Positions 14,800-30,448 of a stretch of DNA of 64,000 nucleotides are shown one piece after another. Numbering within the stretch: the first letter of the stretch is position 1; every line of letters starts with the position of its first letter. The stretch is from an uncultured Planctomycetia bacterium (GTDB taxonomy: Bacteria > Omnitrophota > Gorgyraeia > 2-02-FULL-51-18), in contig CAZSGP010000005.1 in NCBI GenBank assembly GCA_964606485.1, forward strand, positions 11,649-75,648. Reading direction: 5' to 3'. The position numbers and the translations under genes are program-made. Under the pieces are notes generated by a model, which made no database searches, was not told the DNA's origin, and saw nothing but the letters and a program-made list of their open reading frames with translations.

Positions 14800-15417
14800 T
14801 TAAGCCGAATGGCCCCACTCTTCTTGAGCAAATTGCCAGTTGATTAATTTACTGAGAACTGCATTTAAGTATTCTTTTCGACGGTTCTGATAATCCAAAT
14901 AATAAGCGTGCTCCCAAACATCGAGCACTAAAAGCGCTTTTCCGAGCCCCAGAGACATCGGATTCTCGGCGTTGGATGTTTTGACGATCTTGAGCATGCC
15001 CCCTTTGTCCACCACAAGCCACACCCAGCCGCTGCCAAATTGCGCCGTACCCGCTTCTGAAAATTGCTCAAGAAATTTTTCAAAGCTTCCAAAACAGCCT
15101 TCAAGTTTCTGGCCGAACTCGCCCTTTGGCTTCCCGCCGCCTTCAGGGGATAAGCTTTTCCAATAAAAATCGTGATTCCAAACCTGAGCCGCATTGTTAA
15201 AAATGGCTTTATTTGCGTCGTGTCTATCCGTTTGAAGAACAATCGTTTCAAGCTCGAGTCCCTCGAATTGAGTTCCCAGTACCAGCTCATTGAGCTTATC
15301 CACGTAACCCTGGTGATGCTTGTTGTAGTGATAGCTCACCGTTTCCGAAGAGATTACGGGCGCCAGAGCATTTCGGTCGTAAGGAAGTGTCGATAAAATA
15401 AAAGGTTTGTTATTCAT
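14800..15417 (-). CDS. sod: Fe/Mn superoxide dismutase
   Basis: LPYDRNALAP...HHQGYV, AAQVWNHDFYW and metal-ligand region DVWEHAYYLDYQNRR. The start is taken at MNNKPF (15417). Confidence 0.9.
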   Translation of the reverse strand: MNNKPFILSTLPYDRNALAPVISSETVSYHYNKHHQGYVDKLNELVLGTQFEGLELETIVLQTDRHDANKAIFNNAAQVWNHDFYWKSLSPEGGGKPKGEFGQKLEGCFGSFEKFLEQFSEAGTAQFGSGWVWLVVDKGGMLKIVKTSNAENPMSLGLGKALLVLDVWEHAYYLDYQNRRKEYLNAVLSKLINWQFAQEEWGHSA

Positions 15418-16513
15418 CTTTAGAATAATCTCCAAAATAGTTAATGGTGGGATCGATGGTTTTCACAATCTTCCTGTTCTTTTTTAATTCGTACAGCTTT
15501 TCGTCTGCTTTCACCATCATGCTGTCGACCGACCAGGGATCGGACCCTCCAAAATGACAGGCGCCCATGCTCAGCGAAAGGTTATAATTGCGCGCTCCCT
15601 GCAAATTCAAAGTATTTAAACTTTTTTCAATGCGGGACACCACGACCGCCTCGCAGTTATCCGAGGTAAATGCCGTCGCAATCAAGAGGATGAATTCGTC
15701 TCCGGAAAGACGCGCGACAATGTCGGATTCGCGGACACTCTTCCTTAAGACCCGCGCCACTTCTACGAGCGCGCGGTCTCCCTCCCGGTGACCAAAAGTG
15801 TCATTGATATGTTTCAAGCCGTCCATGTCGGCAAAAAAAAGCCACAAACCTGTTTTGGCTCGGCGAGCGAGTTTCAAACGGTCTTCCGCCAAGGTCAAAA
15901 AGCCTCTCCGGTTGCAGAGATGAGTGAGGTCATCCGTAAGAGATAACTCCCGCAGTATTTCTTCGACGTGCTTACGATCGGTGACATCTTCTATGGCCAT
16001 CAGAATGAGCTGGGTTTTTCCATTGGGCGAAAGAATCGGCCGCGCATTCACAAGCATGGAACGCTTGCCGACCACATTAAAATCATGCTGAATCTCGAAA
16101 TTGTCGAAACTCGTTTGGTTTTTTTGAATTTCCCCGAACAAGCGGTGCAGCATGGGAATATTCCACTGGCCATTATTAAGTTCGAAGAGCATCGCGCCCT
16201 CTGTTTTTTCGGGCTTCAGTTTAAAAGTTTGATAAAACGAACGATTCGCACGCACCACTTTTAGATCGGGGCTCAAAATTAAAAGAGGCTCTTTTACCGC
16301 ATCCACGACGCTTTCGGCAAAAAGCCGGGCATTGGTTAAGTTGATTTGATTCCGCTTTTGTTCAAGCGCCGCGGTTTTCATCGTCTCCACTTGAGAGTGC
16401 AATTTCTCATTCTCGTCTTGATCGGATGCATTGAGACGGTTTTCAAAAGGGTTCATTTTCACTCCATTTTTACTATTCATATTGAATGTCATCCAAATAA
16501 AAGGTGATTCCAC
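15410..16513 (-). CDS. PAS-GGDEF diguanylate cyclase
   Basis: GGDEF core RRGF...FFADMDGLKHINDTFGHREGD...LSGDEF preceded by a PAS region. The true start is probably MNPFEN at about 16456. Confidence 0.85.
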   Translation of the reverse strand: MESPFIWMTFNMNSKNGVKMNPFENRLNASDQDENEKLHSQVETMKTAALEQKRNQINLTNARLFAESVVDAVKEPLLILSPDLKVVRANRSFYQTFKLKPEKTEGAMLFELNNGQWNIPMLHRLFGEIQKNQTSFDNFEIQHDFNVVGKRSMLVNARPILSPNGKTQLILMAIEDVTDRKHVEEILRELSLTDDLTHLCNRRGFLTLAEDRLKLARRAKTGLWLFFADMDGLKHINDTFGHREGDRALVEVARVLRKSVRESDIVARLSGDEFILLIATAFTSDNCEAVVVSRIEKSLNTLNLQGARNYNLSLSMGACHFGGSDPWSVDSMMVKADEKLYELKKNRKIVKTIDPTINYFGDYSKDE

Positions 16514-17078
16514 CAGGATTCACATCCAGGTTGGTCGCCCAAGAAAAACCGCCGCTGATCGAAGTTAGATTTTTACCCTGAAGGTTTATGGAATACTGTT
16601 TCCAAACGCTCGTTAAGGCGATGGGGCCAAGACTCGCCATGTCTGAGTCGGCGTATTTTCCTTCGGTCATGCCCCCGGCTTTAAACTGTTCGATTCTCTC
16701 GCCGCCTTTTTCACCACGAGCCCAAAACGTTAATTTTTTGGCACCGGTCAGATCGTAGCCACCGATTTTTGCGCCCCAGTTATTCGCAGGGTTTTGCCAA
16801 TAAATTCCTGCCCACCGGGCGCCTTGCGAGGCTTTTGGGGAATACACAATCCGGATGCACGTAAGCCCGCTGTGCGGGCCTACAGTATTTGTACCGTCAA
16901 ACTTAATGTCTCCGTAATCCCCCATAAATCCCGAAGGGACGTAGTGGTTTGTGCGCGCGGAAGATTCTGTATAAACCGGGAAGGGCGCAAAGGAAATGGC
17001 TTCCTCAGCGCGAGCCTCGACGCTCAAAAGAAACAGGGCGGCTATTAATATGAGTTTGGTCTTCACGTTTTTTTTCAT
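16473..17078 (-). CDS. Secreted protein, possibly a carbohydrate-binding-module-like beta-sandwich
   Basis: Signal peptide MKKNVKTKLILIAALFLLSVEARA. The C-terminal ...GGITFYLDDIQYE resembles the terminal strand of a carbohydrate-binding module. Its ATG overlaps the upstream small gene's TGA as ATGA. Confidence 0.4.
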   Translation of the reverse strand: MKKNVKTKLILIAALFLLSVEARAEEAISFAPFPVYTESSARTNHYVPSGFMGDYGDIKFDGTNTVGPHSGLTCIRIVYSPKASQGARWAGIYWQNPANNWGAKIGGYDLTGAKKLTFWARGEKGGERIEQFKAGGMTEGKYADSDMASLGPIALTSVWKQYSINLQGKNLTSISGGFSWATNLDVNPGGITFYLDDIQYE

Positions 17079-17218
17079 GCGGCCTTTTTGGTTCGCTTTC
17101 GTTTTTCAGCATCATCGGAATCCGCTTCACTGGGTTTGGCGTAGCATTCGTCGCAATTCGTAAATCCCGAGGGAATCTGCACTCCACAAACTCTGCATAA
17201 CTGATAAACTTTATCCAT
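17075..17218 (-). CDS. 47-aa zinc-ribbon protein (CxxC-N11-CxxC) with a basic tail
   Basis: MDKVYQLCRVCGVQIPSGFTNCDECYAKPSEADSDDAEKRKRTKKAA. An AGGAGA ribosome-binding site lies 6 nt upstream of the ATG. Its stop overlaps the next gene's start as ATGA. The 100-aa ORF-track version lacks an RBS and is rejected. Confidence 0.45.
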   Translation of the reverse strand: MDKVYQLCRVCGVQIPSGFTNCDECYAKPSEADSDDAEKRKRTKKAA

Positions 17219-17237
17219 AAATTCTCCTCTAAAATAT

Positions 17238-17465
17238 TTACCAGCGTCCGCGGTCGTCGTTTTGTAAAGACCCTTGGTTTTGAATATCTCTGCGGCCAGC
17301 ACCGTCGCCTTGCGCACGCTTAATATCCTCGTCATTTCCCTGACGCATCTGGTCGGCGTGCTGGTCTCCCTCGTCACGGGATCTATTCACATGGGACGCT
17401 GAAGCCCAGGCAACCACTCCAAAAGCAAAACCTATAAAAATGATAACTACGATTAGTTTTTTCAT
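17238..17465 (-). CDS. Small secreted or membrane-anchored low-complexity protein (hypothetical)
   Basis: The N-terminal hydrophobic stretch MKKLIVVIIFIGFAFGVVAWASA is followed by a D/E/Q/R-rich tail. Bipartite motif site a lies just upstream. Confidence 0.3.
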   Translation of the reverse strand: MKKLIVVIIFIGFAFGVVAWASASHVNRSRDEGDQHADQMRQGNDEDIKRAQGDGAGRRDIQNQGSLQNDDRGRW

Positions 17466-17499: not shown

Positions 17500-17534
17500 A
17501 TCGGGGTAAACGCTTCTTTTTCTATAGGGGAAAT
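17500..17534 (-). promoter_or_regulatory. Bipartite direct-repeat motif, site a (ATCGGGGTAAAC-N13-TATAGGGGAAA)
   Basis: Member of the 11-copy motif family. It overlaps the stop of the giant gene and lies about 35 nt upstream of the start at 17465. Confidence 0.4.
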
Positions 17535-20500
17535 GACGCGGGGATCTGAACCTCGACCCTGTGTGTTTTGCGGTCATCGATCAGCGGTATCGTCATTTCA
17601 CTGCAAAGAACACCGTCGACTCTCACACTGCTACGCTGCTCCTCCTCGGTCTGTGAAATAGCAATCTGGTAGAGCGTCTTCTTGTAGTGATAATTCATTT
17701 TTAACGATTTCCAATCCACAGGAAGACAAGGCTTAAAAGTGAGTTTGTCTGCCTCGAGCTTTAGTCCTAGCAACGATTCGATAATCAGTCGGTACATGCC
17801 GCCTGCTGAGCCGGTATACCAGGTCCATCCGCCGCGGCCGGTGTGGGGCTCGAGCGCATAGACGTCAGCGGCGGCAACATAAGGCTCTACCTTGTAAGTC
17901 GAAATTTTTTCTGGGGTCGCCGAACGGTTGACCGGATTCATCATTCTCATGAGTTGCCAGGCGCGCTCATTATCCCCGAGATCTGCAAATGCCATCGCAG
18001 CCCAGATCGCCGCGTGCGTGTACTGTCCGCCATTTTCTCGAACACCCGGAATATACCCTTTGATATAACCGGGATTTAAATTAGATTTATCAAACGGTGG
18101 ATCAAGTAGTTGAATTAATCCGCTTTCTCTATGAATGAGACGCTGATCGAGCGCCGACATAGCTTGTTGAGCGCGTGCGTGACTGGCCGCTCCAGAGAGC
18201 ACGCTCCAACTTTGGGAGACAGAATCGATTTGGCACTCCACATTCTTTTTAGAACCGAGTGGCGAGCCATCATCAAAATAAGCACGCAGATACCACTCGC
18301 CGTCCCAACCGTACTGCTCGAGATTTTTCTGGAGTTTCTGGGCCTCGACCCGACAGCGCTCTACAAAAACGGCGTCCCCTCTTTTTTCGGCGATTTGTGC
18401 AAATTGCGTGAGCACTTCATAAAGGAAAAATCCCAGCCAAACACTTTCTCCTTTGCCGTGAATACCGACTAAATTCATGCCGTCATTCCAGTCGCCGCTT
18501 CCCATTAACGGCAAACCATGTTCACCAAATTGAAAATTTTTTAAGATGGAGCGTGTGCAGTGCTCGTACAAACTCGCTATTTCTTTTGAAGGACTAGGCG
18601 CATCGTAATACGATTCTTCTGATGCTTGAAGCGGCCGCCCCTCCAGAAAAAGAACCGGTGCATCCAATATCCCGGTGTCCCCGGTACCGCTCACGTACCG
18701 GTGCGTGGCCCACGCGAGCCAGAGAGAGTCATCCGAGCAGCGCGTGCGTACTCCGCGTCCCGACGGCGGATGCCACCAGTGCTGAACATCCCCTTCCTGA
18801 AATTGACGGCTCGCACAAAGAAGAATGTGCTCGCGCGCCAGATGCGGCTTCGCATGAATCAGTGCTGCCACGTCCTGCAATTGGTCTCGAAAACCAAAAG
18901 CTCCGCCGGATTGATAATGAGCGCTCCGGGCCCAGAGGCGGCACGCCAATGTTTGGTATAAAAGCCAGCCATTGGTGAGCACATTTAATGCCGGGTCAGG
19001 AGTTTCAATTTGAATAGTGCCAAGCGTCTCTTTCCAATATTGATTCACCTTTTCGAGCGCTTGACGCGCAGGAACAGATCCTCGGAAACGGTTCACCAAA
19101 TTTCGGACATCCTCAATACCCGACCCCGCTCCCAACATAAAAACAATTTCCCGTTCCTCTCCGCTTGCTAACCCGAAAGGAACTTGAATGGCTCCGCAGG
19201 GATCTAAAACCGCACCCACTTTTCCGGAAAGATGCGAAGATCTCATCGCAGCTGGATTTTTCATCGAGCCGTTACGCCCGATAAACTCGGTGCGATCACC
19301 ACTCACAGTACGCGATGTCTCGCTCACATCAAAAAAAGCAATGCGCTCGCCAAATTCCGGCACGTATGAATTTCGCGCGAAAAGCGCGCTCGTTTTGGAA
19401 TCTATTTCGGTCGTCACATGCATCACCGATTTTGACCGCAAGTCTCCAAGCACCCACTCCACGAAACCCGTCGCGGAAATCCGGCGCGGGCGGCCCGAAT
19501 GATTTTTTATTTTGAGTACGGAAAATTTCACCGCCGCGTCGAGCGCCACATAGACGCTTAGCTCTGAATAAAGTCCTTCTTCGAGATGTTCGAAAACACT
19601 GTATCCAAATCCGTGCCGGACAACGGAGGGTCCAAGACCTTGGGCGGGCATGGGTGTGGGAGACCAAAAGCGCCCCGTTTCTTCGTCCCGCAGGTAAATT
19701 GCCTCTCCGCTCACATCACTCACAAGATCGTTATTCCACGGCGTCAGACGAAACTCGTGAGCATTTTCATTCCAGGTATAAGCACTGCCATTTTCAGAAA
19801 TAACAGATCCAAAATGCGCATTAGCCAACACGTTTACCCACGGCAGCGGCGTTTTTTTTCCGGGCCCAAGATTCATGACGTATTCGCGCCCGTCCAATGT
19901 AAATCCACCTAGCCCATTAGAAAAAATAAGCTCGCGGCTCGGCAAACTTTTAAGTCCATCGCGCGAAATAACCGGGCTTTGAATTTTGGCAGGCAGGAAG
20001 CGTGACGTTTGCGCTTCTGTGGAAGCGCTACGATGAATTTGAACGGCTAACTTTCCTTGGTCATCCCTTATGATGGCGCGCGCGACCGATTGAAAGAGGA
20101 GTCGGTCCTCGTTGGATATTTGCTCCGAAGATCTCACAAAAATTCCTCCGGATCGATGCGATTTTTTCCCCTCTGCAATCCCGGCGATCAAACTCATAAT
20201 TTCTTCGTGAAGCGATTGTTGGTAGTCGCCATGATCTTCATTCCAGATCACGAGATCCACCGGCAAGCCCTTTAAACGCCAGTACGCGTACGCCTGAACC
20301 ATTTGACGCACAAGCTCCAAATTGACTAGCTCTCGAATCTGCACGAGAACAATCGGCAAGTCGCCCGAGATCGAATATCCCCACAAACCCGACTGACCCC
20401 TGCGATTTTTAATAAGAATATTGGGATCCGCACGCAAAGAAGCGTTGGTGTAAATCACGGAGTTCGCAATACGCCGGTACGTTTGGGCGTCCGATTCTGT

Positions 20501-23500
20501 AGCATTAATTTGCCGCAGCACCACTTGACCGTGCGTCCACGCGAGCTCCGAGACCCGATCCGCGAGCCGCCGGTCGTGATATTTCTCAATCAAACTTAAA
20601 GCCGCTTCGCGCGTTTCGCCGACACCGGTGACCATGTCCACCGTCGCCGATTGACCGGGCTCTAGAGTGAGCTGACACCGGATCGCGACAATTGGATCTA
20701 GCACTGAGCCTTGCGTCTCCGATAGCGCTGAAAGATCTTTCATTGCCTGAGGCTCCTCGAGTGTATTTCCGCGGCCGATGAATTTTAGTCGGTCCGTCTC
20801 GTAAGAAATTTTTTCAATTTTGGCTCCGTGTGCCGTCATCAAATGAAACATCCACGACACCTCTTCGTCCGAAGATCGCGGGCGGCGCGTGCAGAGAATG
20901 GATTGCAATCGGCTAATAATTTCAGTTTGGACAAAAAGATTGCTGAACGCAGGATGCAAAGCGTCCGAAGCACAGGGCGCCATCACCACCTCGGCGTAAC
21001 TTGTCACATCCAGTGTCTTGCGTGTCCGGGAACGGTTCGTGATGCGAAGCCGGCGCAATTCAATATCATCTTCCGGCGAAACAATCACCTCGTACTGGGT
21101 GTCAAAATCATGGTCGTGGCGTTGAAATTCCGCGCGGCCTTCTGAAAAAATAGCTTCGTAATTTTTTGGCCGCTTCAGAGTTGGTTGATAGGCCGCCGAC
21201 CAAAACTCTTGGCTCGTCAGATCACGGATGTAGCAAAAAGCGCCCCAGTTATCACACGTGCTATCCTCCCGCCACCGAGTCACCGCGAGATTTTTCCAAC
21301 GACTGTACCCGCCTCCCGCGTTTGTGACCATCACGTGATAACGACCGTTGGATAAAAGCTGCACTTCCGGCACCGCGGTGTCCGCATTTTTAAATCCTTG
21401 CACAGACGGCGGAGAATTACTGGAAGGCGCGCGAATTCCGGGCAGCTCAGTCGGGTGCGCGTGAAAGAGCGCCGCCTTTGGAACCCGTTCTTGGAGCAGC
21501 AACAGTGTGGCTTGAAACGGCGGGTCTGATTCAAACCGCTTTTGCATCAAAGGACCGAGCAACACATAAGCTAAGGAAAGTAAATTCATCCCCTGATGAT
21601 GTGCTAAATAAGATTGAAGAATCACTCCCTGCCCCCCGCGCCTTTTTCGGGAAGGTGTAAAATCAACCGCTTCATAAAATCCAAATTTTCCAAGCATTCC
21701 TTCGTCGGCCAGTCTCTGCAAATTTAAATAAGCGGCCTCATGGTTTACCATGAGTGCTAAATGCGTCGCATACGGAGCAATCACTAAATCGTCCGCAAGT
21801 CTCCGCTTCAGTCCCAGACCCGGCACGCCGAAAGCTCGGTACTGATAATTAAAATCGGAGTCCACCGTGTTGTAGCCGGATTCCGACACCCCCCATGGCA
21901 CCCCACGTTCTTTTCCATACTGTATTTGTTTTCTCACAACCGCTTTATAGGTCTGATTAAGGAGTGTGTTCGGATAAGCCGGCATGACTAAAAGCGGCAT
22001 GAGATATTCAAACATCGATCCGCTCCATGAAAGAAGAATGGAATCGCCTCCCGTGTTCGTTAAAAGGCGTCCGAGGGCAAACCAGTTTTCTTGCGAGATC
22101 TGACCCTGAGCAATCGCGACAAAACTACACAATCTGGCTTCCGACGCGAGCAGATCATAAAAACTCGGGTCGCGTCGCCGCTCATCGACGTTGTATCCAA
22201 TGGCTAAAAGGTGGCGTGTTTCGTCGTACAGAAAGCTGTATTCCATTCGAGCGCAATCGATGCATTGCAAAATAAGTTGCTCGATCAAGCGCAAACGATT
22301 TTTTGCGAGGACGCAGATTTCAGGGGCCGTTTCAAGCACTGACAATTCACGCAGCGTCGGAATACTAGCAAGCTTTGAGAGATCACCAAAAAAAACCAGC
22401 TCTTCTAAAGCGGAGCGACATTGAGCATCGAGCGCCCCTGACCACAAACCGGCTTGGCTGTCCCGGTGCTCGGAAAAATGTTGTTTTATTTCGCCGGCAC
22501 TTTTTGCGAGCGACTCCAAAAAATGTTTGGCAGAGACCGCTGTGATCGGTTTAAAATTCAAAGCGCTTTCCAGATCCCTCTGAAAGTTTGCGAGCGACTC
22601 CACCGTCCGGTCTTTGGCCTCCTCCCAAAAAACCTGAAAGGTATCACTCAAACCCTCGAACACGCGCGCGCTTAAAACCGGTTGGCCGCCAAGCGCCAAC
22701 AGCCCTTGTTGAAGCGTGATCAAATTAGCCGCGAGATTTCCGCTGTCCACCGTCGAGATATATCCGGGAATCAGAGGCTTAAGCGTTTGAGTGTCGTACC
22801 AATTATAGAAATGTCCCTGATGGCGCTTGAGTAGCGCCATCGTGCGCAGTGTGTTTTGAGTCCGCTCGAGCAGAACACTCATACCGGTGTAGCCAAAATC
22901 ATACGCCGACAAATTCGCGAGAAGCGAAAGTCCGATATTGGTCGGAGACGTTCGGTGAGCCACCCTCTCTAGCCGGTTTTCTTGAAAGTTATCGGGCGGC
23001 AACCAATGATCACCCGGCCCGACTAAATTCTCAAAGTAGGCCCACGTTTTTCGGCTCACCTTTCTTAAAAACCGAGCTTGGTCCTCCGTCATTTTTACAG
23101 AGTGTTGCAAAAGAGGACGGCTTATCCACCACGCCACCGCGGGTGAAACCATCCATAAAAATAAAATGGGAAGCGCCAAAACCAACACCTCACTTTTTAA
23201 TAGGAATAGATAAATCGTCATCGTCAAACTGATGAGAGGCGCTGCCCACATTAAACGGCAGGAAATCATTAAATCTTTTGAATCGTCGCAATGATGAGTA
23301 ACGGAGAGTTTCCATTCCAGAAGGCGTTTATGAGTAATCAGCATTCGGACCATCGTCCGCGCGATGGCGTCCAAACTCAGAAGCGCTTCATAAGGAAGAC
23401 AGCCTATTGCAAAAACAGCCTGAGCCAAACGTTGACCTATGGAACGAGCGAATGCGGCTAAATGATGACGCAGAAGAATTTCATCTGCTTTGCGGAAAAT

Positions 23501-26038
23501 TTCGAGAAACGAAAGTATTAAAGATGGGATTAAAATAATTCCGACGAGCAATAAAGTCCACTGCGCTGCCGCCGGCAAAACGATCCACCCGATTAAAAAT
23601 AAGAAGAGCTGCGCTACAGGGACGAGACTGCGCCGCAAATTATCAAAAATTTTCCACTGTGACAATCGGGAGATGGGGTTATTGATCCGATGCTCACCCA
23701 GACCTCGGACACTTGACCAGAGCCAGCGCACGAGTTGCCAATCGCCGCGAATCCAGCGATGCCGGCGGCGCACGTCAGTGTCGTAACGGGAAGGATATTC
23801 CTCGTAAAGCTGCACATCACTCAGTATTCCTGAGCGCAAATAACAACCCTCCAAAAGATCATGGCTTAATATTTGGCCGTTCGGGAAACGCCCTTTTAAA
23901 ACGCGTTTGAACATTTGGAGATCGTAAATGCCTTTACCCATAAACGAGCCTTCGCAAAAAACGTCCTGGTAAACATCGGAGACGGTGCGCGTATAAGGGT
24001 CAATCCCCGCTTCGCCCGCAAATAATTGTGCGTAAAGTGAGCGGCCGGCACCTGGAAGACTGACGCTCACCCGCGGCTGGAGAATTCCGTATCCTTCCAC
24101 GACGCACTGCCGAACCGCATCGTACCGGGGACGATTGAGCGGATGCGCCATGGCTCCAACCATTTGCCTCGCCGAACCACGCGGCAATTGAGTGTCTGTA
24201 TCCAAGGTGATCACGTATTTCACGTCCGATAAAACAACCGTGTCACCGACAATAAGCGAAAATCTATTTTTAAAATTACCGCACAAAAAGGAGTTTAAGT
24301 CCTCGAGTTTTCCGCGCTTTCGTTCGTGGCCCATCCAAATTTCATCTTGAGCATTCCAAACCCGCGGACGGTGAAAAAGAAAAAAGATGTCCCCTTTTTC
24401 GGACCTGTACTTTTGATTCAGGGTTTCAATATTTTTTTGGACAAGCTCGAGCAGCGGTCCATCTTCTTCAAGGTTTTTTCCCGATGCGTCTTGAAAATCC
24501 GTGAGCAGTGCAAAATGCAGATTTTCTCCCCGATTGGCCAAAAACCGGACTTCCAAAGCTTCGACTACGGCTTCAGCGCCCTGAGCGTTCGTGAGCATAG
24601 TAGGAACCACCACTAGTGTTCGAAGCTCCGGAGGAATTCCTCGAGACAAATCCATTCGCGGCAAAAGACGCGGCGCAACACACAGCATGGACAAAAAATT
24701 TACTAGCTCCACCGCGGGTTGACTCGTAAAAATAAATGTAAAAAAATAAATCAAACCCATCACCCAGGAAGGAACGCCACTCGTCAGAACGTGTGACAGA
24801 AGACCCGCAGTTAACGTTCCCGTAATCAATAAAATGACGCTTAGGTAAAGAGTGAGTGGAAATTGGGCCATCGTCTTTAAAAAACGGTCTGTCATTGACG
24901 GCCGCATTTGAACGCTGCGTTCGAGACTCAAAACCCCTTTATCGATAAGATAAAATCCAACGTCGGCCGCTCTGCCATTATCTCCTTCCGGCGGAGGACT
25001 TTCGCAGGTCAATCGGATCGCTCGACGCGCCACTTCCTCTTCGGAAAAACTGCTTTTTTTAGCAATTCTTTCCACCGCGTGCCGGTAACGGTCGCGGGTC
25101 GCAAAATCCATCTTTGAATAAATTCCGCTAGGTTCCTTTTGCAGGCACCGCTCGACGGCACTGTTGGTTTCAACAAACTCGCTCCAGTCCATCGTCCTCA
25201 GCAAACGAAGACTGCCGATGCTGTTGCTCACGGAAATTTGATCCGCCGCTTGCTTCTGATTCTCCTGAGCGACCAATTGTTGGATGGTAAAATTGGATTC
25301 GGATAACCGGTGTTTGATCCAATTGAGCGTCAGTGCCGGTTCCAGATTGTGTTCTTGCAGCAAACGCGCAAGTTCTGCCACAAACGAAGCAGACATCGGT
25401 GGGTTTGATCGCACCATGTCTGCCACCACCAACATCAGGCTTTTTGGATCTTTATGGGCCATTTCAATCATCTGATCTGCCCAAAAATTAGCTAGATTTC
25501 GATCATTCCGGTCAGCGGCAATCGAAGACCCCACTCTCCTAAAATTTTCTATAAGAGCCAAGCGCAGCATGATGGGAATCGCCCACAATTCGCCGAGCTT
25601 AAGAACCGAAATCTCCTGGTAAGATGCGATAAAACCGCCCAAACTTTCAGGGTCCACCCGCCCATCTCCATGCGAGATGGTTTCCAAAGCGATGTCGTAA
25701 ACCCGCGGAAGCATGGCAGACGGATCTTTGGCCAAACGAGGCAGCTCACGGCTGTAATTTTTTGGCAAATGTCGTTTTGCTGTTTGAATTTGTTCCTCGA
25801 TCAGATAAAAATTATCCAACAGCCATTCCTCGGCAGGTGAAATATGGCGTCCCGCCTGTGCTGTTGCGGACAAAAGGGATCCTATCTTCGTCAGGATTTT
25901 TTCATTGTTCTTGAGGCGCGCGAGAAGTAATTCTGGAGTTTTTTTGGAGACCAAGTGATGCGAGCCCGCCAGCGTTTTTCCGTGCTGCTTCATTTGATCG
26001 GTGCTAAACAATTCCGATCTTAGCGGCGGCTCGCGCAT
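17522..26038 (-). CDS. Cyclic beta-1,2-glucan synthase-like giant protein (NdvB/ChvB/Cgs family: membrane GT84 + glucoamylase-like (alpha/alpha)6 + C-terminal GH94 phosphorylase)
   Basis: Single 2838-aa ORF. The GT region has LVVVPTML...FALLTDFQDA...WMGHERKRGKLEDLN and is flanked by TM clusters. The middle region has NIGLSLLANLSAYDFGY and LLSWSGSMFEYLMP. The C-terminal GH94-like region has GWDGEWYLRAYFDDG. Length and domain order match NdvB/Cgs. Confidence 0.8.
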   Translation of the reverse strand: MREPPLRSELFSTDQMKQHGKTLAGSHHLVSKKTPELLLARLKNNEKILTKIGSLLSATAQAGRHISPAEEWLLDNFYLIEEQIQTAKRHLPKNYSRELPRLAKDPSAMLPRVYDIALETISHGDGRVDPESLGGFIASYQEISVLKLGELWAIPIMLRLALIENFRRVGSSIAADRNDRNLANFWADQMIEMAHKDPKSLMLVVADMVRSNPPMSASFVAELARLLQEHNLEPALTLNWIKHRLSESNFTIQQLVAQENQKQAADQISVSNSIGSLRLLRTMDWSEFVETNSAVERCLQKEPSGIYSKMDFATRDRYRHAVERIAKKSSFSEEEVARRAIRLTCESPPPEGDNGRAADVGFYLIDKGVLSLERSVQMRPSMTDRFLKTMAQFPLTLYLSVILLITGTLTAGLLSHVLTSGVPSWVMGLIYFFTFIFTSQPAVELVNFLSMLCVAPRLLPRMDLSRGIPPELRTLVVVPTMLTNAQGAEAVVEALEVRFLANRGENLHFALLTDFQDASGKNLEEDGPLLELVQKNIETLNQKYRSEKGDIFFLFHRPRVWNAQDEIWMGHERKRGKLEDLNSFLCGNFKNRFSLIVGDTVVLSDVKYVITLDTDTQLPRGSARQMVGAMAHPLNRPRYDAVRQCVVEGYGILQPRVSVSLPGAGRSLYAQLFAGEAGIDPYTRTVSDVYQDVFCEGSFMGKGIYDLQMFKRVLKGRFPNGQILSHDLLEGCYLRSGILSDVQLYEEYPSRYDTDVRRRHRWIRGDWQLVRWLWSSVRGLGEHRINNPISRLSQWKIFDNLRRSLVPVAQLFLFLIGWIVLPAAAQWTLLLVGIILIPSLILSFLEIFRKADEILLRHHLAAFARSIGQRLAQAVFAIGCLPYEALLSLDAIARTMVRMLITHKRLLEWKLSVTHHCDDSKDLMISCRLMWAAPLISLTMTIYLFLLKSEVLVLALPILFLWMVSPAVAWWISRPLLQHSVKMTEDQARFLRKVSRKTWAYFENLVGPGDHWLPPDNFQENRLERVAHRTSPTNIGLSLLANLSAYDFGYTGMSVLLERTQNTLRTMALLKRHQGHFYNWYDTQTLKPLIPGYISTVDSGNLAANLITLQQGLLALGGQPVLSARVFEGLSDTFQVFWEEAKDRTVESLANFQRDLESALNFKPITAVSAKHFLESLAKSAGEIKQHFSEHRDSQAGLWSGALDAQCRSALEELVFFGDLSKLASIPTLRELSVLETAPEICVLAKNRLRLIEQLILQCIDCARMEYSFLYDETRHLLAIGYNVDERRRDPSFYDLLASEARLCSFVAIAQGQISQENWFALGRLLTNTGGDSILLSWSGSMFEYLMPLLVMPAYPNTLLNQTYKAVVRKQIQYGKERGVPWGVSESGYNTVDSDFNYQYRAFGVPGLGLKRRLADDLVIAPYATHLALMVNHEAAYLNLQRLADEGMLGKFGFYEAVDFTPSRKRRGGQGVILQSYLAHHQGMNLLSLAYVLLGPLMQKRFESDPPFQATLLLLQERVPKAALFHAHPTELPGIRAPSSNSPPSVQGFKNADTAVPEVQLLSNGRYHVMVTNAGGGYSRWKNLAVTRWREDSTCDNWGAFCYIRDLTSQEFWSAAYQPTLKRPKNYEAIFSEGRAEFQRHDHDFDTQYEVIVSPEDDIELRRLRITNRSRTRKTLDVTSYAEVVMAPCASDALHPAFSNLFVQTEIISRLQSILCTRRPRSSDEEVSWMFHLMTAHGAKIEKISYETDRLKFIGRGNTLEEPQAMKDLSALSETQGSVLDPIVAIRCQLTLEPGQSATVDMVTGVGETREAALSLIEKYHDRRLADRVSELAWTHGQVVLRQINATESDAQTYRRIANSVIYTNASLRADPNILIKNRRGQSGLWGYSISGDLPIVLVQIRELVNLELVRQMVQAYAYWRLKGLPVDLVIWNEDHGDYQQSLHEEIMSLIAGIAEGKKSHRSGGIFVRSSEQISNEDRLLFQSVARAIIRDDQGKLAVQIHRSASTEAQTSRFLPAKIQSPVISRDGLKSLPSRELIFSNGLGGFTLDGREYVMNLGPGKKTPLPWVNVLANAHFGSVISENGSAYTWNENAHEFRLTPWNNDLVSDVSGEAIYLRDEETGRFWSPTPMPAQGLGPSVVRHGFGYSVFEHLEEGLYSELSVYVALDAAVKFSVLKIKNHSGRPRRISATGFVEWVLGDLRSKSVMHVTTEIDSKTSALFARNSYVPEFGERIAFFDVSETSRTVSGDRTEFIGRNGSMKNPAAMRSSHLSGKVGAVLDPCGAIQVPFGLASGEEREIVFMLGAGSGIEDVRNLVNRFRGSVPARQALEKVNQYWKETLGTIQIETPDPALNVLTNGWLLYQTLACRLWARSAHYQSGGAFGFRDQLQDVAALIHAKPHLAREHILLCASRQFQEGDVQHWWHPPSGRGVRTRCSDDSLWLAWATHRYVSGTGDTGILDAPVLFLEGRPLQASEESYYDAPSPSKEIASLYEHCTRSILKNFQFGEHGLPLMGSGDWNDGMNLVGIHGKGESVWLGFFLYEVLTQFAQIAEKRGDAVFVERCRVEAQKLQKNLEQYGWDGEWYLRAYFDDGSPLGSKKNVECQIDSVSQSWSVLSGAASHARAQQAMSALDQRLIHRESGLIQLLDPPFDKSNLNPGYIKGYIPGVRENGGQYTHAAIWAAMAFADLGDNERAWQLMRMMNPVNRSATPEKISTYKVEPYVAAADVYALEPHTGRGGWTWYTGSAGGMYRLIIESLLGLKLEADKLTFKPCLPVDWKSLKMNYHYKKTLYQIAISQTEEEQRSSVRVDGVLCSEMTIPLIDDRKTHRVEVQIPASFPL

Positions 26039-26044
26039 CGACTT

Positions 26045-26839
26045 TTATTCGATAGCCTGAAATAAACGAAAAAGATCTAGCTTGTAATCCACTACTTTAA
26101 TTTGAAACTTGTCATGACGGCCGTGAGACACCGTATAAGGCTCGACACTTTTCACAACCGTTTCAATCTTCAGACGTTTGTCGTTTATTTTCCGCGCGAG
26201 GAGAACCGCCTCTACCACGTCTCTCTTGTCGTTTGAAAAATAAATCTCCATCGCCGTATCATTTTTAAGAACCGCGGCGATTAATTTATAATTTTCAATC
26301 ACACTGGGCCGCTTTTTAGGAAACATAAAATGAGCCACGAACACTCCGCCGAGTCTTAGTTGATTAAAGAGATTATTCCAAACCCCCAAAGGATCCTCGT
26401 GGTAATACAGACCGCACATCGCGGTGATGAGGTCCGCCCCACCCGGTATAACCACTGTTTTCATATCGCCTTGAATAAACTGAAACGATTTCTTGTGGAG
26501 CAATTTTTCTAATTTCTTATCGTCATATTTTTTTCTCAAGTCAATCATGTCTTCCTCGGGAAGATTTTTCTCATCCCACGGAATCAAGTCGACGCCAACA
26601 GGGTCAATCCGGTCGCCATACTCTTCAACACCCTGATGCAAAGCCACACCCGCGCCTGACGGAACGTCGGCCCATCGTGTGCACTGTTGACCCGCCTGAC
26701 GGTGCAAGTAACTCCGGATTCTAAAATGCGATCCGCATTCCTCAAGCCTTAAATCATAATCTTCGATGGTCCGGAATTTTTGACTGTACCGCTGGACTTT
26801 CAACTGTTCTTGATAGATTTCATTCGAAGTGACACTCAT
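26045..26839 (-). CDS. Putative SAM-dependent methyltransferase-like protein
   Basis: Weak Rossmann-type motifs DVPSGAGVAL, ADLITAMCGLYY and LRLGGVFVAHF. It lies immediately upstream of the cgs-like gene with a 7-nt gap. Confidence 0.35.
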   Translation of the reverse strand: MSVTSNEIYQEQLKVQRYSQKFRTIEDYDLRLEECGSHFRIRSYLHRQAGQQCTRWADVPSGAGVALHQGVEEYGDRIDPVGVDLIPWDEKNLPEEDMIDLRKKYDDKKLEKLLHKKSFQFIQGDMKTVVIPGGADLITAMCGLYYHEDPLGVWNNLFNQLRLGGVFVAHFMFPKKRPSVIENYKLIAAVLKNDTAMEIYFSNDKRDVVEAVLLARKINDKRLKIETVVKSVEPYTVSHGRHDKFQIKVVDYKLDLFRLFQAIE

Positions 26840-27885
26840 TCTGACCCCCAGGCTTCACGGTTCGTGAATTTCCAAATAATCTCTCCTTGTTCCGTCGCCG
26901 GTCCCTTCAGCCCCAAAACAAGCCTTCGTGTTAGAGTAAATTTTTCAAGAAACTGCTGGATTATGATCGAAATCAATACGCCGCAAACCACGTACGCCGT
27001 AAACTGAACGATTGTGTTATGAAGGTGATTATTTTCAAATACGGCTCTTAAGCCCGAAACAACCATCCGGTTTAAAATGTGAATTCCAAAGGCGAAATAT
27101 CCGATGCGCGCAAGCACCCCATTTTCCGGTCTGAAATAAATCAGAAGCGGCACCGCTGAAAAACTAACTAGAAGTCCGACCATGTGATGCGCTTTCTCCG
27201 GCAAGAAAGGTTTTAGAAATAAAGCAACCCAAAGCAGTCCGCTGAAAAATGCAACCGTTCCATAAGCGATAATCGCTTTCTTTAAAAACAACTGCTTCGA
27301 AAACCGGCGGATGCCGTAGCCCATGAGAAAAAAGGGCATCAAGTAATTCACGCCAAAAAGAGAAAAAGCGTGCGGCGGCGTGATGAGCAAACTCGATGCG
27401 AGACTGAGCGTGAGCCACACAGACCACTTGAGAGGCGTGTTCAGTAAATTAAGCGCGTCCATCACGCCGATCAAAATAAAAATTTCAAAGATCGAGTAAA
27501 GAAACCAAAGCTGTTCATGCGGCCAGATATAAACCCGGTAGAGATCCTGGAGCGGCGGGTGATTTTGCATTGGAAGCAGGGAAAAAACGATGTACTGAAT
27601 AGTCGACACAACGAGAAACGGCACAAAAATCCGCGAGGCTTTTCCCTGAACGAGTCTTCTAAACCCTTCTTGGGTGGCCGGTGTTGCCGCATACAAATAC
27701 GCTGAGATGACGGTAAAAAGCGGCATTCGGATCGGGGTAAATAAATAATAAAAAAAACGAAGCGCTGAGGCCGCCATCCCCGTATGACTTGCACGCGTAA
27801 TGTCCTGAGTAATGATGTAACCTGCCACAACCAGCAATATGGCAAAACCTCTCAACGTCTCAATGGACTGGTCTTTTTGTTTCAT
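26836..27885 (-). CDS. Acyltransferase family 3 (OpgC/Cgm-like membrane O-acyltransferase)
   Basis: N-terminal signature LRGFAILLVVAGYI and about 10 TM segments. The start is taken at MKQKDQ (27885), which overlaps the galE stop as ATGA. Confidence 0.75.
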   Translation of the reverse strand: MKQKDQSIETLRGFAILLVVAGYIITQDITRASHTGMAASALRFFYYLFTPIRMPLFTVISAYLYAATPATQEGFRRLVQGKASRIFVPFLVVSTIQYIVFSLLPMQNHPPLQDLYRVYIWPHEQLWFLYSIFEIFILIGVMDALNLLNTPLKWSVWLTLSLASSLLITPPHAFSLFGVNYLMPFFLMGYGIRRFSKQLFLKKAIIAYGTVAFFSGLLWVALFLKPFLPEKAHHMVGLLVSFSAVPLLIYFRPENGVLARIGYFAFGIHILNRMVVSGLRAVFENNHLHNTIVQFTAYVVCGVLISIIIQQFLEKFTLTRRLVLGLKGPATEQGEIIWKFTNREAWGSE

Positions 27886-28865
27886 TTTGAATGACTCTGC
27901 CTTTCCCATTCCCAAGCGGAACGGATAATCTCTTGAAGTTTTTTTTGTGGGGCCCAATTTAAAATTTTTTTTGCTTTTTGGCTCGACGCGACAAGCGTTG
28001 CGGGGTCCCCAGGCCTTCTATGCCCCATTTTGAAAGAAATCTTTTTTCCGGTCACGCGCTCCGCCTCTTCCAAGATCTCCATGACCGAGTACCCGTCCCC
28101 ATTTCCCAGATTAAAAACTTCATTCTGAATTTTTTTATCGAACGCCTTCAAAGCCAGCAAATGCGCCTGGGCCAAATCTTCTACATGGATGTAATCGCGC
28201 ACACAGGTGCCGTCCTCGGTGTCGTAATCGTCACCAAAAATTGTGAGATCCTTTTTTTGGCCGGCCGCTGCCTTTAGAATGTTAGGGATGAGATGTGATT
28301 CGGGGCTATGCCGCTCACCCGTGCGCATTTTCGAATCCGCACCGCTCGCATTAAAGTAACGCAGACAAATATATTTGATATCCCCTGAACGCGCCGAGTC
28401 TTTTAGGATTTGCTCAATCATCAACTTGCTTTGTCCGTAAGGACTGGTCGGAACCGTCGGGTCTTCCTCTCGAATCGGCAAATGGCGCGGCTCTCCGTAC
28501 ACCGCCGCTGACGATGAAAAAATAAACCGCTCGACCGAATTTTTTTTCATCGCTTTTAAAAGCTGAATGCAGGCCGAGACATTGTTTTCGTAATACTTAA
28601 GCGGGTCCACCACGGATTCCCCGACAAGGCTGGACGCTGAAAAATGCATCACCGCCTGAATGGAAAAGCGCTCAAATGCCTTTGAAATCTCAGAGAAATT
28701 TTTTAGATCGCCAATAACGAGCGGCACGTCTTTAGGAACAAGCTCTCTATGTCCGGTGCTCAAGCTGTCAAATACGACCGGCTGATAATTGGCTTCGAGT
28801 AACGCTAAAACCATATGCGAGCCGATGTATCCTGCCCCTCCGACTATCAAAATCTCTTTTGACAT
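27882..28865 (-). CDS. galE: UDP-glucose 4-epimerase
   Basis: NAD-binding motif ILIVGGAGYIGSH and active-site motif YGQSKLMIEQIL. Confidence 0.85.
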   Translation of the reverse strand: MSKEILIVGGAGYIGSHMVLALLEANYQPVVFDSLSTGHRELVPKDVPLVIGDLKNFSEISKAFERFSIQAVMHFSASSLVGESVVDPLKYYENNVSACIQLLKAMKKNSVERFIFSSSAAVYGEPRHLPIREEDPTVPTSPYGQSKLMIEQILKDSARSGDIKYICLRYFNASGADSKMRTGERHSPESHLIPNILKAAAGQKKDLTIFGDDYDTEDGTCVRDYIHVEDLAQAHLLALKAFDKKIQNEVFNLGNGDGYSVMEILEEAERVTGKKISFKMGHRRPGDPATLVASSQKAKKILNWAPQKKLQEIIRSAWEWERQSHSK

Positions 28866-28867
28866 TT

Positions 28868-30268
28868 TTACTTAGCTCCCTTGGCGAATAAAACGGCCGG
28901 CACTGTTTTAAAAATTATTTCGAGATCCAACCAAATCGACCAGCGGTCGATGTAACTTAAGTCGAGCTTCATCCACTGATCAAAATCGACGATTTGATTG
29001 CGTCCTGAAATTTGCCAAAGGCAGGTGAGCCCCGGCCGCATGGAGAGGCGGCGTCTGTGCCAGCTGTCGTAACGATTGACCTCATTGGGGATCGGCGGTC
29101 GCGGCCCGACAATGCTCATGTCACCCCTAAACACATTCCAGAGCTGTGGGAGTTCATCCAGACTCGTTTTCCTTAAAAACTTTCCGAGTCTCGTCACACG
29201 CGGGTCATTCGTCATCTTGAATGCCGGCCCTTTCATTTCATTATTTTTCTGGAGTGCTGCGAGCTTTGACTCGGCATCGACTCCCATGGTTCGGAATTTA
29301 TAAAAGGCAAATTTCCGGTGATGCAGACTACAGCGCTGTTGGGTAAAAAGCACCGGACCTTCGGAAGTTAGGCGAATAGCGAGTGCAATGAGAAGCATGA
29401 GCGGCATAAACACAATGAGCGCGAGGCCCGACAAGACAATGTCCATCAGTCGTTTGAGTCCCAAATGCCAAGACATCGCCGGATCCGAGGAGCAGTTGAC
29501 CATCGGCAATCCGTAAAAATTAACTGATTGAGTTTTGGCAATCTTTAAATTGAAATGATCCACCGCCAAATTGATCCGCACGCCCTCCGTCTCACAAAAA
29601 TCCACCAATTCCTCAATCTTCGTGAGCCACATTTTCGGGACAAGGAATACGATCTCATCGACGATGTTGTTATGAATGATGTCTGGTGCATCTTTTAATG
29701 TTCCTAAAATTTTATGTCCCATGACGGATTCGCCGACTTTTTTGTCATCACCATCCAGAATCCCCACAATGTTTAAACCCCATTCCTCGTGCTGGTTCAC
29801 CGATTCTAAAAAATTCTTGGCGCGAGGTCCCGAACCCACCACCAAGACATTTTGACGAAGACCCTGTTTTCGCATACGCCTAAAAAAAACCGAAAGCACA
29901 AGAAACTCGATTAAAAGTGCTCCGATGAGTAAAACAAAAAAAATAAAAAAGGATTTTGCAAGAATGTATCTTGAGGAAATGTAAGCCATGGCGCCAAATA
30001 ATACGGTTTGAAATAAAAACGTGTTGATCATGATTCCGGTTACCTTGGAATCCTGCTTCGTGCGGAAGGCGTCGTAGAGTTTAAAAAAGTTAAGTAAATG
30101 CCAGCACAAGAGAATCGCGACGGGCACAAGCAACAGATTCGCCATTTCTGGATTTATCTGGCGCACAGCGCTCACAAAAAGCGTTGCCGCCGTGCACATC
30201 AAGAGGACGATACAGCTGTCCAAAAAAATGAGCGTTTGTTTATAAAAAACAGTGTGATCTTTGAGCAT
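28868..30268 (-). CDS. Undecaprenyl-phosphate hexose-1-phosphate transferase (polyprenyl glycosylphosphotransferase, WbaP/EpsB type)
   Basis: Four N-terminal TM segments, a Rossmann-like linker, and the C-terminal bacterial sugar transferase domain KRLMDIVLS...DELPQLWNVFRGDMSIVGPRP. Confidence 0.85.
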   Translation of the reverse strand: MLKDHTVFYKQTLIFLDSCIVLLMCTAATLFVSAVRQINPEMANLLLVPVAILLCWHLLNFFKLYDAFRTKQDSKVTGIMINTFLFQTVLFGAMAYISSRYILAKSFFIFFVLLIGALLIEFLVLSVFFRRMRKQGLRQNVLVVGSGPRAKNFLESVNQHEEWGLNIVGILDGDDKKVGESVMGHKILGTLKDAPDIIHNNIVDEIVFLVPKMWLTKIEELVDFCETEGVRINLAVDHFNLKIAKTQSVNFYGLPMVNCSSDPAMSWHLGLKRLMDIVLSGLALIVFMPLMLLIALAIRLTSEGPVLFTQQRCSLHHRKFAFYKFRTMGVDAESKLAALQKNNEMKGPAFKMTNDPRVTRLGKFLRKTSLDELPQLWNVFRGDMSIVGPRPPIPNEVNRYDSWHRRRLSMRPGLTCLWQISGRNQIVDFDQWMKLDLSYIDRWSIWLDLEIIFKTVPAVLFAKGAK

Positions 30269-30271
30269 TTT

Positions 30272-30349
30272 TTAGAAGGTCTGATTTCTTTCGTGGTACT
30301 GCTTCATGGTCAAAACGGCTCCCAAAACAACGAAAGTAATAAGTGTCAT
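30272..30349 (-). CDS. 25-aa hydrophobic micro-ORF (MTLITFVVLGAVLTMKQYHERNQTF) ending 3 nt before the PGT start; possible leader peptide
   Basis: An AGGAGA ribosome-binding site lies 7 nt upstream of the ATG. Motif site b is about 50 nt upstream. Confidence 0.25.
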   Translation of the reverse strand: MTLITFVVLGAVLTMKQYHERNQTF

Positions 30350-30434: not shown

Positions 30435-30448
30435 CTAACGGACGAGCA

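What the first reader, a model, noticed from the sequence alone, without database searches (positions are those of the whole stretch)
17522..26038. 8.5-kb ORF encoding a 2838-aa GT84 + glucoamylase-like + GH94 multidomain membrane protein
Uninterrupted giant ORF with the three-module architecture of cyclic beta-1,2-glucan synthases. It has a membrane-embedded GT-A domain (DxD context LLTDFQDA, HERKRGKLEDLN), a central (alpha/alpha)6 module and a C-terminal cellobiose-phosphorylase-like GH94 module. The first roughly 390 residues are soluble and precede the first TM cluster. The N-terminal organisation therefore deserves comparison with Brucella Cgs, where the TMs start earlier.
Basis: partly seen in the sequence, partly recalled or inferred. 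Interest (0 to 1): 0.55.

Follow-up and report, generated by a model that had tools for sequence, protein, structure and literature searches.

The report

Summary
The ORF is real: window 17522..26038, minus strand, 2838 codons with no internal stop. It aligns end to end, in one collinear stretch, with the cryo-EM-solved Agrobacterium tumefaciens Cgs/ChvB (8RF0/8RF9, 2017 bits). Every residue shown or proposed to matter in that enzyme and in the T. italicus cyclization domain is conserved:
- GT84: D514, D613/D615, D727, R761-W762.
- Primer tyrosine: Y682.
- Cyclase (GH189): E1300 and E1386.
- GH94: D2385 and D2519.

Hydropathy gives three TM hairpins, at about 395-445, 805-847 and 929-969. This is the reference topology.

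The roughly 390-aa soluble N-terminus is the family's NTD:
- On its own it hits AtCgs residues 60-402 at E=3e-48.
- AtCgs TM1 (409-427) aligns to query 396-414.
- It matches 6038 cluster representatives, at the N-terminus in all 150 listed.

Full-length relatives at 52-71% identity occur in many phyla. Verdict: an ordinary new member of a known family, of low interest.

Two minor side notes. The gene sits at the end of a Wzy-type exopolysaccharide locus in a probably Omnitrophota-like genome. No Cgt-type exporter lies within the window.

The parts
17522..26038 (-). [quoted passage not shown]
   Evidence: ORF and translation. Full-length collinear match to 8RF0/8RF9 at 2017 bits. An identical protein is present in NCBI and in a Logan contig.
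24869..26038 (-). Residues 1-390: cytoplasmic N-terminal domain (NTD). In AtCgs this is the scaffold whose TPR-like part holds the Tyr-linked glucan primer.
   Evidence: Alone it hits AtCgs 60-402 at E=3.4e-48. It matches 6038 representative clusters at E<=1e-3, and all 150 listed hits match at their N-terminus. Identity is 64.5% to 17 close relatives and 29% to AtCgs. It contains no TM-grade segment except a buried helix at 145-163, which aligns within the stretch matched to AtCgs 60-402, upstream of AtCgs TM1.
24704..24856 (-). Residues about 395-445: TM1-TM2 hairpin
   Evidence: Kyte-Doolittle 19-residue maxima are 1.89 (395-413) and 1.46 (418-436). The connecting loop has no K/R and both flanks are K/R-rich. 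The segment aligns to AtCgs native 409-451.
23639..24673 (-). Residues about 456-800: GT84 glycosyltransferase domain. It includes D514, R573, D613/D615, primer Tyr Y682 (GIDPY), D727, R761-W762 and R764.
   Evidence: Residue-by-residue alignment to AtCgs D527, R586, D624/D626, Y694, D739, R773-W and R776, verified on the sequence. Identity to AtCgs is 45%. The roles of these residues come from PMC10901819.
23132..23626 (-). Residues about 805-969: TM3-TM4 hairpin, an ~80-aa cytoplasmic helix/loop insert (848-928), and the TM5-TM6 hairpin
   Evidence: Hydropathy peaks at 805-823 (2.20), 829-847 (2.58), 929-947 (1.89) and 951-969 (2.39). The amphipathic segment at 871-892 matches the stretch between TM4 and TM5 described for AtCgs.
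21434..23122 (-). Residues about 973-1535: cyclization (CY) domain. It is an (alpha/alpha)6 transglycosylase of family GH189, with S1095, D1098, E1300 (acid/base), E1344, E1386 (nucleophile) and H1480/H1481.
   Evidence: It hits the T. italicus CGS cyclization domain 8WY1 at E=1e-126 and aligns to AtCgs 995-1522. Pfam PF10091 covers 1293-1503. The catalytic residues are taken from PMC10834661 and PMC11842490.
17525..21433 (-). Residues about 1536-2838: GH94 phosphorylase (GP) region that trims chain length, with D2385 and catalytic acid D2519 (GDWNDG)
   Evidence: Pfam GH94 supersandwich (7.5e-174) and GH94 catalytic domain (3.4e-127). It aligns to AtCgs through to the C-terminus. PDB cellobiose/chitobiose phosphorylases hit at about 1e-80.
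20009..20503 (-). Residues about 1846-2010: Rossmann-fold-like subdomain inserted between GP1 and GP2
   Evidence: Collinear with AtCgs 1847-2012 in the alignments. The subdomain is defined in PMC10901819. Identity to close relatives is 67.6%.

Best explanation
[quoted passage not shown] By homology with the A. tumefaciens enzyme, the mechanism is inferred as follows.
1. The protein sits in the inner membrane through three TM hairpins, with all large domains in the cytoplasm.
2. The GT84 domain uses UDP-glucose to build a beta-1,2-glucan on a tyrosine of its own IF1h loop (Y682 here). The N-terminal domain cradles this primer.
3. The C-terminal GH94 domain trims over-long chains by phosphorolysis.
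4. The central GH189 domain (E1386 as nucleophile, E1300 as acid/base) releases the chain as a ring of roughly 17-25 glucoses by intramolecular transglycosylation.

Shown here: architecture, collinearity, conservation of every named catalytic residue, and topology by hydropathy. Inferred: enzymatic activity, product size, and export and physiological role. The likely role is a periplasmic osmoprotectant or surface/host-interaction glucan.
For: - Full-length collinear phmmer match to AtCgs structures 8RF0/8RF9: 2017 bits, query 40-2809 against 60-2818.
- The cyclization domain matches 8WY1 at 1e-126.
- Pfam GH94 domains score 1e-127 to 1e-174.
- All functional residues are conserved: D514, R573, D613/D615, Y682, D727, R761-W762, R764, S1095, D1098, E1300, E1344, E1386, H1480/H1481, D2385, D2519. 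They map onto residues mutated or described in PMC10901819, PMC10834661 and PMC11842490.
- Hydropathy shows six hydrophobic segments as three hairpins with a positive-inside charge pattern.
- More than 8000 homologues were scored, and the top 120 are full-length at 63-71% identity.
- 80 GTDB loci carry full-length relatives.
- The NTD is conserved family-wide.
Against: - No biochemical data exist for this protein.
- No Cgt/ChvA-type ABC exporter is encoded in the 64-kb window, although in Brucella cgs and cgt are, from memory, also unlinked.
- TM2 has only a modest hydropathy score of 1.46.
- The protein lacks about 17-30 N-terminal residues and two ~13-aa pieces of the CY helical insert that most close relatives have.
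- Pfam and NCBIfam have no model that names it directly.
Confidence: 0.93

Rival explanations
1. It is a Cgs-family protein, but its product in this lineage is not a free periplasmic cyclic glucan. Instead, the glucan (cyclic or linear) would be acylated or methylated by the co-transcribed upstream genes. It would then be secreted through, or incorporated into, the exopolysaccharide made by the adjacent Wzx/Wzy/Wza locus.
For: - cgs is the last large gene of a same-strand EPS cluster: pyruvyl transferase, flippase, GT2 x2, porin, Wza-like, Wzz-like, Wzy_C, GT4, WecG, Bac_transf and epimerase.
- An Acyl_transf_3 gene and a 264-aa ORF lie directly upstream. The 264-aa ORF has only sub-threshold methyltransferase hits. 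The two overlap by 4 nt, and the 264-aa ORF ends 6 nt before the cgs start.
- In the closest NCBI relative (67% identity), cgs directly follows Wza/Wzz/Wzy genes that are 50-52% identical to those in the window.
- No Cgt-type exporter lies in the window.
Against: - Gene adjacency is weak evidence. The other neighbours are not syntenic in 80 related loci or in the 71%-identical relative.
- All residues for cyclization and length control are intact, so the enzyme itself looks canonical.
- Substituted cyclic glucans (succinyl, phosphoglycerol) are already known in Rhizobiales, so even this reading would be a variation on known biology.
- The methyltransferase hits are below threshold, at E=0.006-0.03.
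Confidence: 0.1
2. The gene is an inactive remnant or a scaffold-only protein, for example with GH94 or GT activity lost, or an assembly chimera of separate GT and GH94 genes.
For: The protein is 30-100 aa shorter than most close relatives. The contig comes from a metagenome assembly.
Against: - There are no internal stops over 2838 codons.
- The same protein occurs on both the Logan contig (SRR12487046) and the 206-kb NCBI contig.
- It is collinear with AtCgs across every domain junction.
- All catalytic residues are present.
- Identity to relatives is even across domains at 63-70%, which indicates purifying selection on all of them.
Confidence: 0.02

Closest known systems
Agrobacterium tumefaciens Cgs (ChvB), cryo-EM structures 8RF0/8RF9/8RFE/8RFG (Sedzicki et al. 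2024, PMC10901819)
   Same: The domain order is identical: NTD, TM1-2, GT84, TM3-4, an ~80-aa insert, TM5-6, CY, and GP with a Rossmann-like insert. The two proteins align collinearly from residue 40 to residue 2809. All mutated or annotated residues are conserved, including primer Tyr (Y694 -> Y682) and catalytic acid D2528 -> D2519. TM1 falls at the same aligned position.
   Different: Sequence divergence is moderate: 29% identity in the NTD, 45% in GT84, and about 21-31% in the TM regions. There are small indels, for example a 9-aa insertion after the RW motif and differences in the CY four-helix insert. chvB is, from memory, adjacent to the exporter gene chvA in Agrobacterium. Here no exporter gene is nearby, and the neighbours are EPS genes.
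Brucella abortus Cgs and Sinorhizobium meliloti NdvB
   Same: They belong to the same family and have the same three catalytic activities. Brucella Cgs was the enzyme used to define the initiation, elongation, length-control and cyclization steps (summarised in PMC10834661, PMC2995898).
   Different: They could not be aligned directly here, because the sequences were not obtainable with these tools. From memory of Ciocchini et al. 2004, Brucella TM I is at residues 419-441, that is after a ~418-aa cytoplasmic N-terminus. This is the same layout as here, not an earlier TM start.
Thermoanaerobacter italicus CGS cyclization domain (GH189; PDB 8WY1; Tanaka et al. 2024, PMC10834661)
   Same: Query residues 985-1521 align at E=1e-126. 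Nucleophile E1442, acid/base E1356, E1400 and H1536/H1537 correspond to E1386, E1300, E1344 and H1480/H1481.
   Different: The helical insert between the conserved halves differs in length and sequence. 8WY1 is an isolated domain from a Gram-positive thermophile.
GH94 phosphorylases (cellobiose/chitobiose phosphorylases such as 3QDE and 1V7V; L. phytofermentans 1,2-beta-oligoglucan phosphorylase 5H3Z)
   Same: The C-terminal ~800 residues align over the full length of cellobiose phosphorylases at about 1e-80. The catalytic Asp lies in a GDWNDG context.
   Different: Those are soluble stand-alone enzymes. Here the module is duplicated in part, with two supersandwich stretches. It is fused to the synthase and acts as a length-control and scaffold domain.

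Membership tests
[quoted passage not shown] | A single polypeptide of about 2800-2900 aa with collinear NTD, GT84, cyclase and GH94 modules | tested here: met
   One phmmer stretch covers query 40-2809 against 8RF0 60-2818 at 2017 bits. Segment searches confirm each part.
[quoted passage not shown] | Six TM helices arranged as three hairpins, with a ~400-aa cytoplasmic N-terminal domain before TM1 | tested here: met
   Hydropathy peaks lie at 395-413, 418-436 (weaker, 1.46), 805-823, 829-847, 929-947 and 951-969, with a positive-inside pattern. AtCgs TM1 at 409-427 aligns to query 396-414. No dedicated topology predictor was available.
CAZy GT84 (glucan-elongating GT-A domain of Cgs) | UDP-coordinating Asp residues, catalytic base Asp and the RW motif (At D527, D624/D626, D739, R773-W) | tested here: met
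   D514, D613/D615, D727 and R761-W762 align exactly and were verified on the sequence. Pfam returned no GT84-specific match, only a sub-threshold GT2_3 hit.
[quoted passage not shown] | Autoglucosylated primer tyrosine in the IF1h loop (At Y694) | tested here: met
   Y682 sits in a conserved GIDPY motif and is invariant in 18 aligned family members. Glycosylation itself cannot be tested here.
CAZy GH189 (Cgs cyclization / transglycosylase domain) | An (alpha/alpha)6 domain with a nucleophile Glu and an acid/base Glu (Ti E1442/E1356; At E1386/E1300) | tested here: met
   E1386 and E1300 are conserved, together with E1344 and H1480/H1481. The domain hits 8WY1 at E=1e-126.
CAZy GH94 (inverting phosphorylases) | GH94 supersandwich plus catalytic (alpha/alpha)6 domain with a catalytic Asp (At D2528) and D2393 | tested here: met
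   PF06165 scores 7.5e-174 and PF17167 scores 3.4e-127. D2519 and D2385 are aligned.
[quoted passage not shown] | Makes cyclic beta-1,2-glucan from UDP-glucose | not testable with these tools
   This needs an in vitro assay or complementation of a chvB/ndvB/cgs mutant.
Cgs-Cgt-Cgm cyclic glucan pathway (accessory, not defining for the enzyme) | A linked ABC exporter (Cgt/ChvA/NdvA) and a glucan-modifying enzyme | tested here: not met
   Every ORF of 500 aa or more in the window was scanned, and none carries ABC exporter domains. An Acyl_transf_3 gene lies two genes upstream, but its substrate is unknown. Linkage to the exporter is, from memory, not universal; Brucella lacks it.

The most novel reading that the evidence does not exclude
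In a poorly sampled, probably Omnitrophota-like (PVC) lineage, cgs has been recruited into a Wzx/Wzy/Wza exopolysaccharide operon, next to an acyltransferase and a possible methyltransferase. On this reading the cyclic (or linear) beta-1,2-glucan would be chemically modified. It would then leave the cell through an EPS export route rather than through the classical Cgt ABC exporter.
Probability: 0.08. Interest if true: 0.4.

Novelty: new member of a known kind. Interest (0 to 1): 0.12.

Why it matters
It matters little beyond annotation. [quoted passage not shown]

It adds one more data point that this giant enzyme is spread far beyond the Rhizobiales and Brucella, where it was studied. It is highly conserved across phyla: 63-71% identity to the closest full-length proteins in the protein search and 52-64% in the GTDB genome loci.

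It also confirms that the N-terminal domain resolved in the 2024 structure is a conserved family feature: the 150 best-scoring of its 6038 cluster hits all match it at their N-terminus.

The suggested anomaly, a late start of the TM helices, is not an anomaly.

Tried and rejected
1. Brucella topology. I tried to read the Brucella topology and mapping papers (Ciocchini 2004, Ciocchini 2007, Guidolin 2009, Roset 2006). None is held in the library, so the Brucella TM positions rest on memory. A literature search for 'six transmembrane' with Cgs returned only unrelated Candida papers.
2. Source organism. Exact look-up of 13 window proteins returned only unnamed singleton or tiny clusters. The genome-contig scan did not return the source genome. 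A PEP carboxylase search gave Candidatus Omnitrophica and Chlamydiae MAGs as the best named relatives at 58-61% identity. The taxonomic placement is therefore tentative and rests on one gene.
3. Conserved synteny. tblastn of nine neighbouring proteins against 80 related loci found only scattered GGDEF hits. Only the closest NCBI relative shares the Wza/Wzz/Wzy neighbours.
4. Cgt/ChvA exporter. None was found in the window.
5. Small flanking ORFs. NCBIfam and Pfam scans of the 264, 100 and 201 aa ORFs gave only sub-threshold hits.
6. RNA and terminators. The Rfam scan of the window found only three tRNAs. The promoter/terminator scan downstream of cgs gave nothing above the shuffled expectation.
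7. Frameshift or chimera. I considered and rejected this (see rival explanations).
8. The 145-163 segment. I considered whether this hydrophobic segment of the NTD is a TM helix and rejected it. It aligns within the stretch matched to AtCgs 60-402, upstream of AtCgs TM1.
9. Structure prediction. I did not run it. The protein exceeds the 1200-aa limit, and the sequence match to a solved structure is already decisive.
Full report
OBSERVATION. The ORF exists exactly where stated, at window 17522..26038, but on the minus strand. It starts with ATG and runs for 2838 codons with one terminal stop. Stop codons are expected at 4.8% per codon from this strand's composition, so a stop-free run of this length has a chance of about 3e-61. 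The identical protein is encoded on a 206-kb NCBI contig and on a separately assembled 49-kb Logan contig from run SRR12487046. The upstream gene's TAA lies 6 nt before the cgs ATG, and no extension of the ORF is possible.

WHAT IT IS. Pfam finds two GH94 supersandwich stretches (7.5e-174), a GH94 catalytic domain at 2334-2758 (3.4e-127) and PF10091 'putative glucoamylase' at 1293-1503. The only GT signal is a sub-threshold GT2_3 hit at 735-832, and Pfam returned no GT84-specific match. NCBIfam gives nothing useful. [quoted passage not shown] Segment searches confirm every part:
- CY plus GP1.
- GP2-3 to the C-terminus.
- The cyclization domain against the T. italicus crystal structure 8WY1, at 1e-126.
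- The N-terminal 390 residues alone, at 3.4e-48.

FUNCTIONAL RESIDUES. I used the numbering of Sedzicki et al. 2024 (PMC10901819), which equals 8RF0 chain numbering. The aligned query residues are listed below and were verified on the sequence.
- GT84: D527 -> D514 (LLTDFQDA), R586 -> R573 (HERKRGK), D624/D626 -> D613/D615 (TLDTDT), catalytic base D739 -> D727 (SHDLLEG), R773-W -> R761-W762, R776 -> R764.
- Primer tyrosine: Y694 -> Y682 (GIDPY).
- CY: S1101/D1104 -> S1095/D1098, and E1300 -> E1300.
- GP: D2393 -> D2385, and catalytic acid D2528 -> D2519 (GDWNDG).
- GH189 cyclization domain (Tanaka et al. 2024, PMC10834661; review PMC11842490): nucleophile Ti E1442 / At E1386 -> E1386; acid/base Ti E1356 / At E1300 -> E1300; E1400 -> E1344; H1536/H1537 -> H1480/H1481.
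All of these are also invariant among the 18 aligned family members.

TOPOLOGY AND THE N-TERMINAL DOMAIN. Kyte-Doolittle scanning gives hydrophobic segments at 395-413, 418-436 (weaker), 805-823, 829-847, 929-947 and 951-969. The loops inside each pair are very short and free of K/R, and the flanks are rich in K/R. This indicates three hairpins with N-terminus and all large domains cytoplasmic. It is the six-helix layout reported for AtCgs, including the ~80-residue cytoplasmic stretch between TM4 and TM5.

They are not, for four reasons.
- The AtCgs structure has a cytoplasmic NTD before TM1. It is an elongated scaffold whose TPR-like part binds the Tyr-linked glucan primer.
- AtCgs's own first hydrophobic helix (native 409-427) aligns to query 396-414.
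- The NTD used alone as a query finds 6038 50%-identity cluster representatives at E<=1e-3 and 1308 at E<=1e-30. All 150 listed hits match it at their N-terminus. The full-length ones are 2800-2980 aa, and the many shorter ones look like contig-truncated fragments.
- Against 17 close relatives the NTD is 64.5% identical, within the 63-70% range of the catalytic domains.
If anything, the query is slightly shorter at the extreme N-terminus, lacking about 17-30 residues that relatives have. It also lacks two ~13-aa pieces of the CY helical insert. For Brucella Cgs I could not obtain the sequence or the topology paper. From memory, TM I is at 419-441, which agrees with the layout here.

DISTRIBUTION. 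More than 8000 homologues were scored. The best 120 are full-length at 63-71% identity and come from MAGs labelled NC10, Nitrospirae, Sulfuricaulis, Burkholderiales, Aminicenantales and others. A scan of GTDB species genomes returned 80 loci with full-length relatives at 52-64% identity. These come from Gamma- and Betaproteobacteria, Desulfobacterota, Bacteroidia, Verrucomicrobiota and Dehalococcoidia, including cultured Massilia, Duganella and Perlucidibaca. The family is therefore widespread and well sampled.

CONTEXT. cgs is the last large gene of a minus-strand run that reads as a Wzx/Wzy-type exopolysaccharide locus. In order, the run contains:
- pyruvyl transferase and flippase;
- two GT2 genes;
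- a beta-barrel porin;
- Wza-like Poly_export;
- a chain-length determinant;
- Wzy_C;
- GT4, WecG and Bac_transf;
- an NAD-dependent epimerase;
- Acyl_transf_3;
- a 264-aa ORF with only sub-threshold methyltransferase similarity;
- then cgs.
Downstream lie two small unknown ORFs, a PAS-GGDEF diguanylate cyclase and a superoxide dismutase.

No Cgt/ChvA-type ABC exporter is present in the window. These neighbours are not syntenic in the 80 related loci. In the closest NCBI relative (67% identity), however, cgs directly follows Wza/Wzz/Wzy genes that are 50-52% identical to those of the window.

The window's PEP carboxylase has Candidatus Omnitrophica and Chlamydiae MAGs as its best named relatives, at 58-61% identity. 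Window proteins are unnamed singletons in the protein collection. The source is therefore probably a poorly sampled PVC/Omnitrophota-like bacterium, but this rests on a single gene.

MECHANISM (inferred by homology). UDP-glucose is used by the GT84 domain to extend a beta-1,2-glucan attached to Y682. The chain is handed between the GT, GH94 and GH189 sites in the chamber formed with the NTD. GH94 phosphorolysis limits the length. GH189 forms a glycosyl-enzyme intermediate on E1386 and resolves it with the chain's own 2-OH, releasing a cyclic glucan and leaving the primer for the next cycle (PMC10901819, PMC10834661). Architecture and residues are shown here. Activity, product size, export route and physiological role are inferred.

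VERDICT. The suggested peculiarity of the N-terminus is not supported. This is an ordinary, intact member of a well-characterised and structurally solved family, of low interest. The only mildly unusual aspects are contextual: the linkage to an EPS locus, the upstream acyltransferase and unknown ORF, the absence of a nearby exporter, and the probable non-proteobacterial host. None of them changes what the gene is.

Noticed in passing
window 26045-42794 (minus strand); L082 3254-6914: cgs sits at the distal end of a same-strand Wzx/Wzy/Wza-type exopolysaccharide gene cluster. In the closest NCBI relative (Cgs 67% identical, GCA_964628355.1), cgs directly follows Poly_export/Wzz/Wzy_C genes that are 50-52% identical to window 34773-35372, 33690-34772 and 32345-33712. 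The cgs-EPS linkage is therefore shared by two related genomes.
   Followed up: partly
window 26045-26839 (minus strand): A 264-aa ORF ends 6 nt before the cgs ATG and overlaps the upstream Acyl_transf_3 gene (26836-27957) by 4 nt. It has no Pfam or NCBIfam family, only sub-threshold methyltransferase hits (Methyltransf_31 at E=0.006), and it is a singleton in the protein collection. It could be a glucan- or EPS-modifying enzyme.
   Followed up: partly
window 7920-10721 (minus strand): The best named relatives of the PEP carboxylase are Candidatus Omnitrophica MAGs (59-61%) and a Chlamydiae MAG (58%), and its closest hit overall is only 63% identical. The window probably comes from a poorly sampled PVC/Omnitrophota-like lineage. 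By contrast, the best named relatives of its Cgs are Proteobacteria, NC10 and Nitrospirae at 64%.
   Followed up: partly
window 15410-16513 (minus strand); L078 6343-8714, L054 10768-11235: A PAS-GGDEF diguanylate cyclase lies about 1 kb downstream of cgs. GGDEF-domain genes also lie just downstream of cgs in at least two unrelated loci (Deltaproteobacteria and Syntrophaceae MAGs). This may be coincidence, or it may hint at c-di-GMP-linked regulation.
   Followed up: no
window 1-64000: No Cgt/ChvA/NdvA-type ABC exporter is encoded anywhere in the window. Every ORF of 500 aa or more was scanned against Pfam.
   Followed up: yes
window 52631-54901, 41523-42794 and 16473-17377 (minus strand): Several ORFs have no family assignment: 756 aa, 423 aa, 201 aa and 100 aa. 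The 696-aa ORF at 42791-44881 carries a Sortilin/Vps10-like repeat hit, and 57029-59176 encodes an autotransporter beta-domain protein.
   Followed up: no
window 26038-26060 (minus strand): There is no recognisable Shine-Dalgarno sequence ahead of the cgs ATG (…GAATAAAAGTCGATG…). Translation may be coupled to the upstream ORF, or the lineage may make little use of SD sequences.
   Followed up: no
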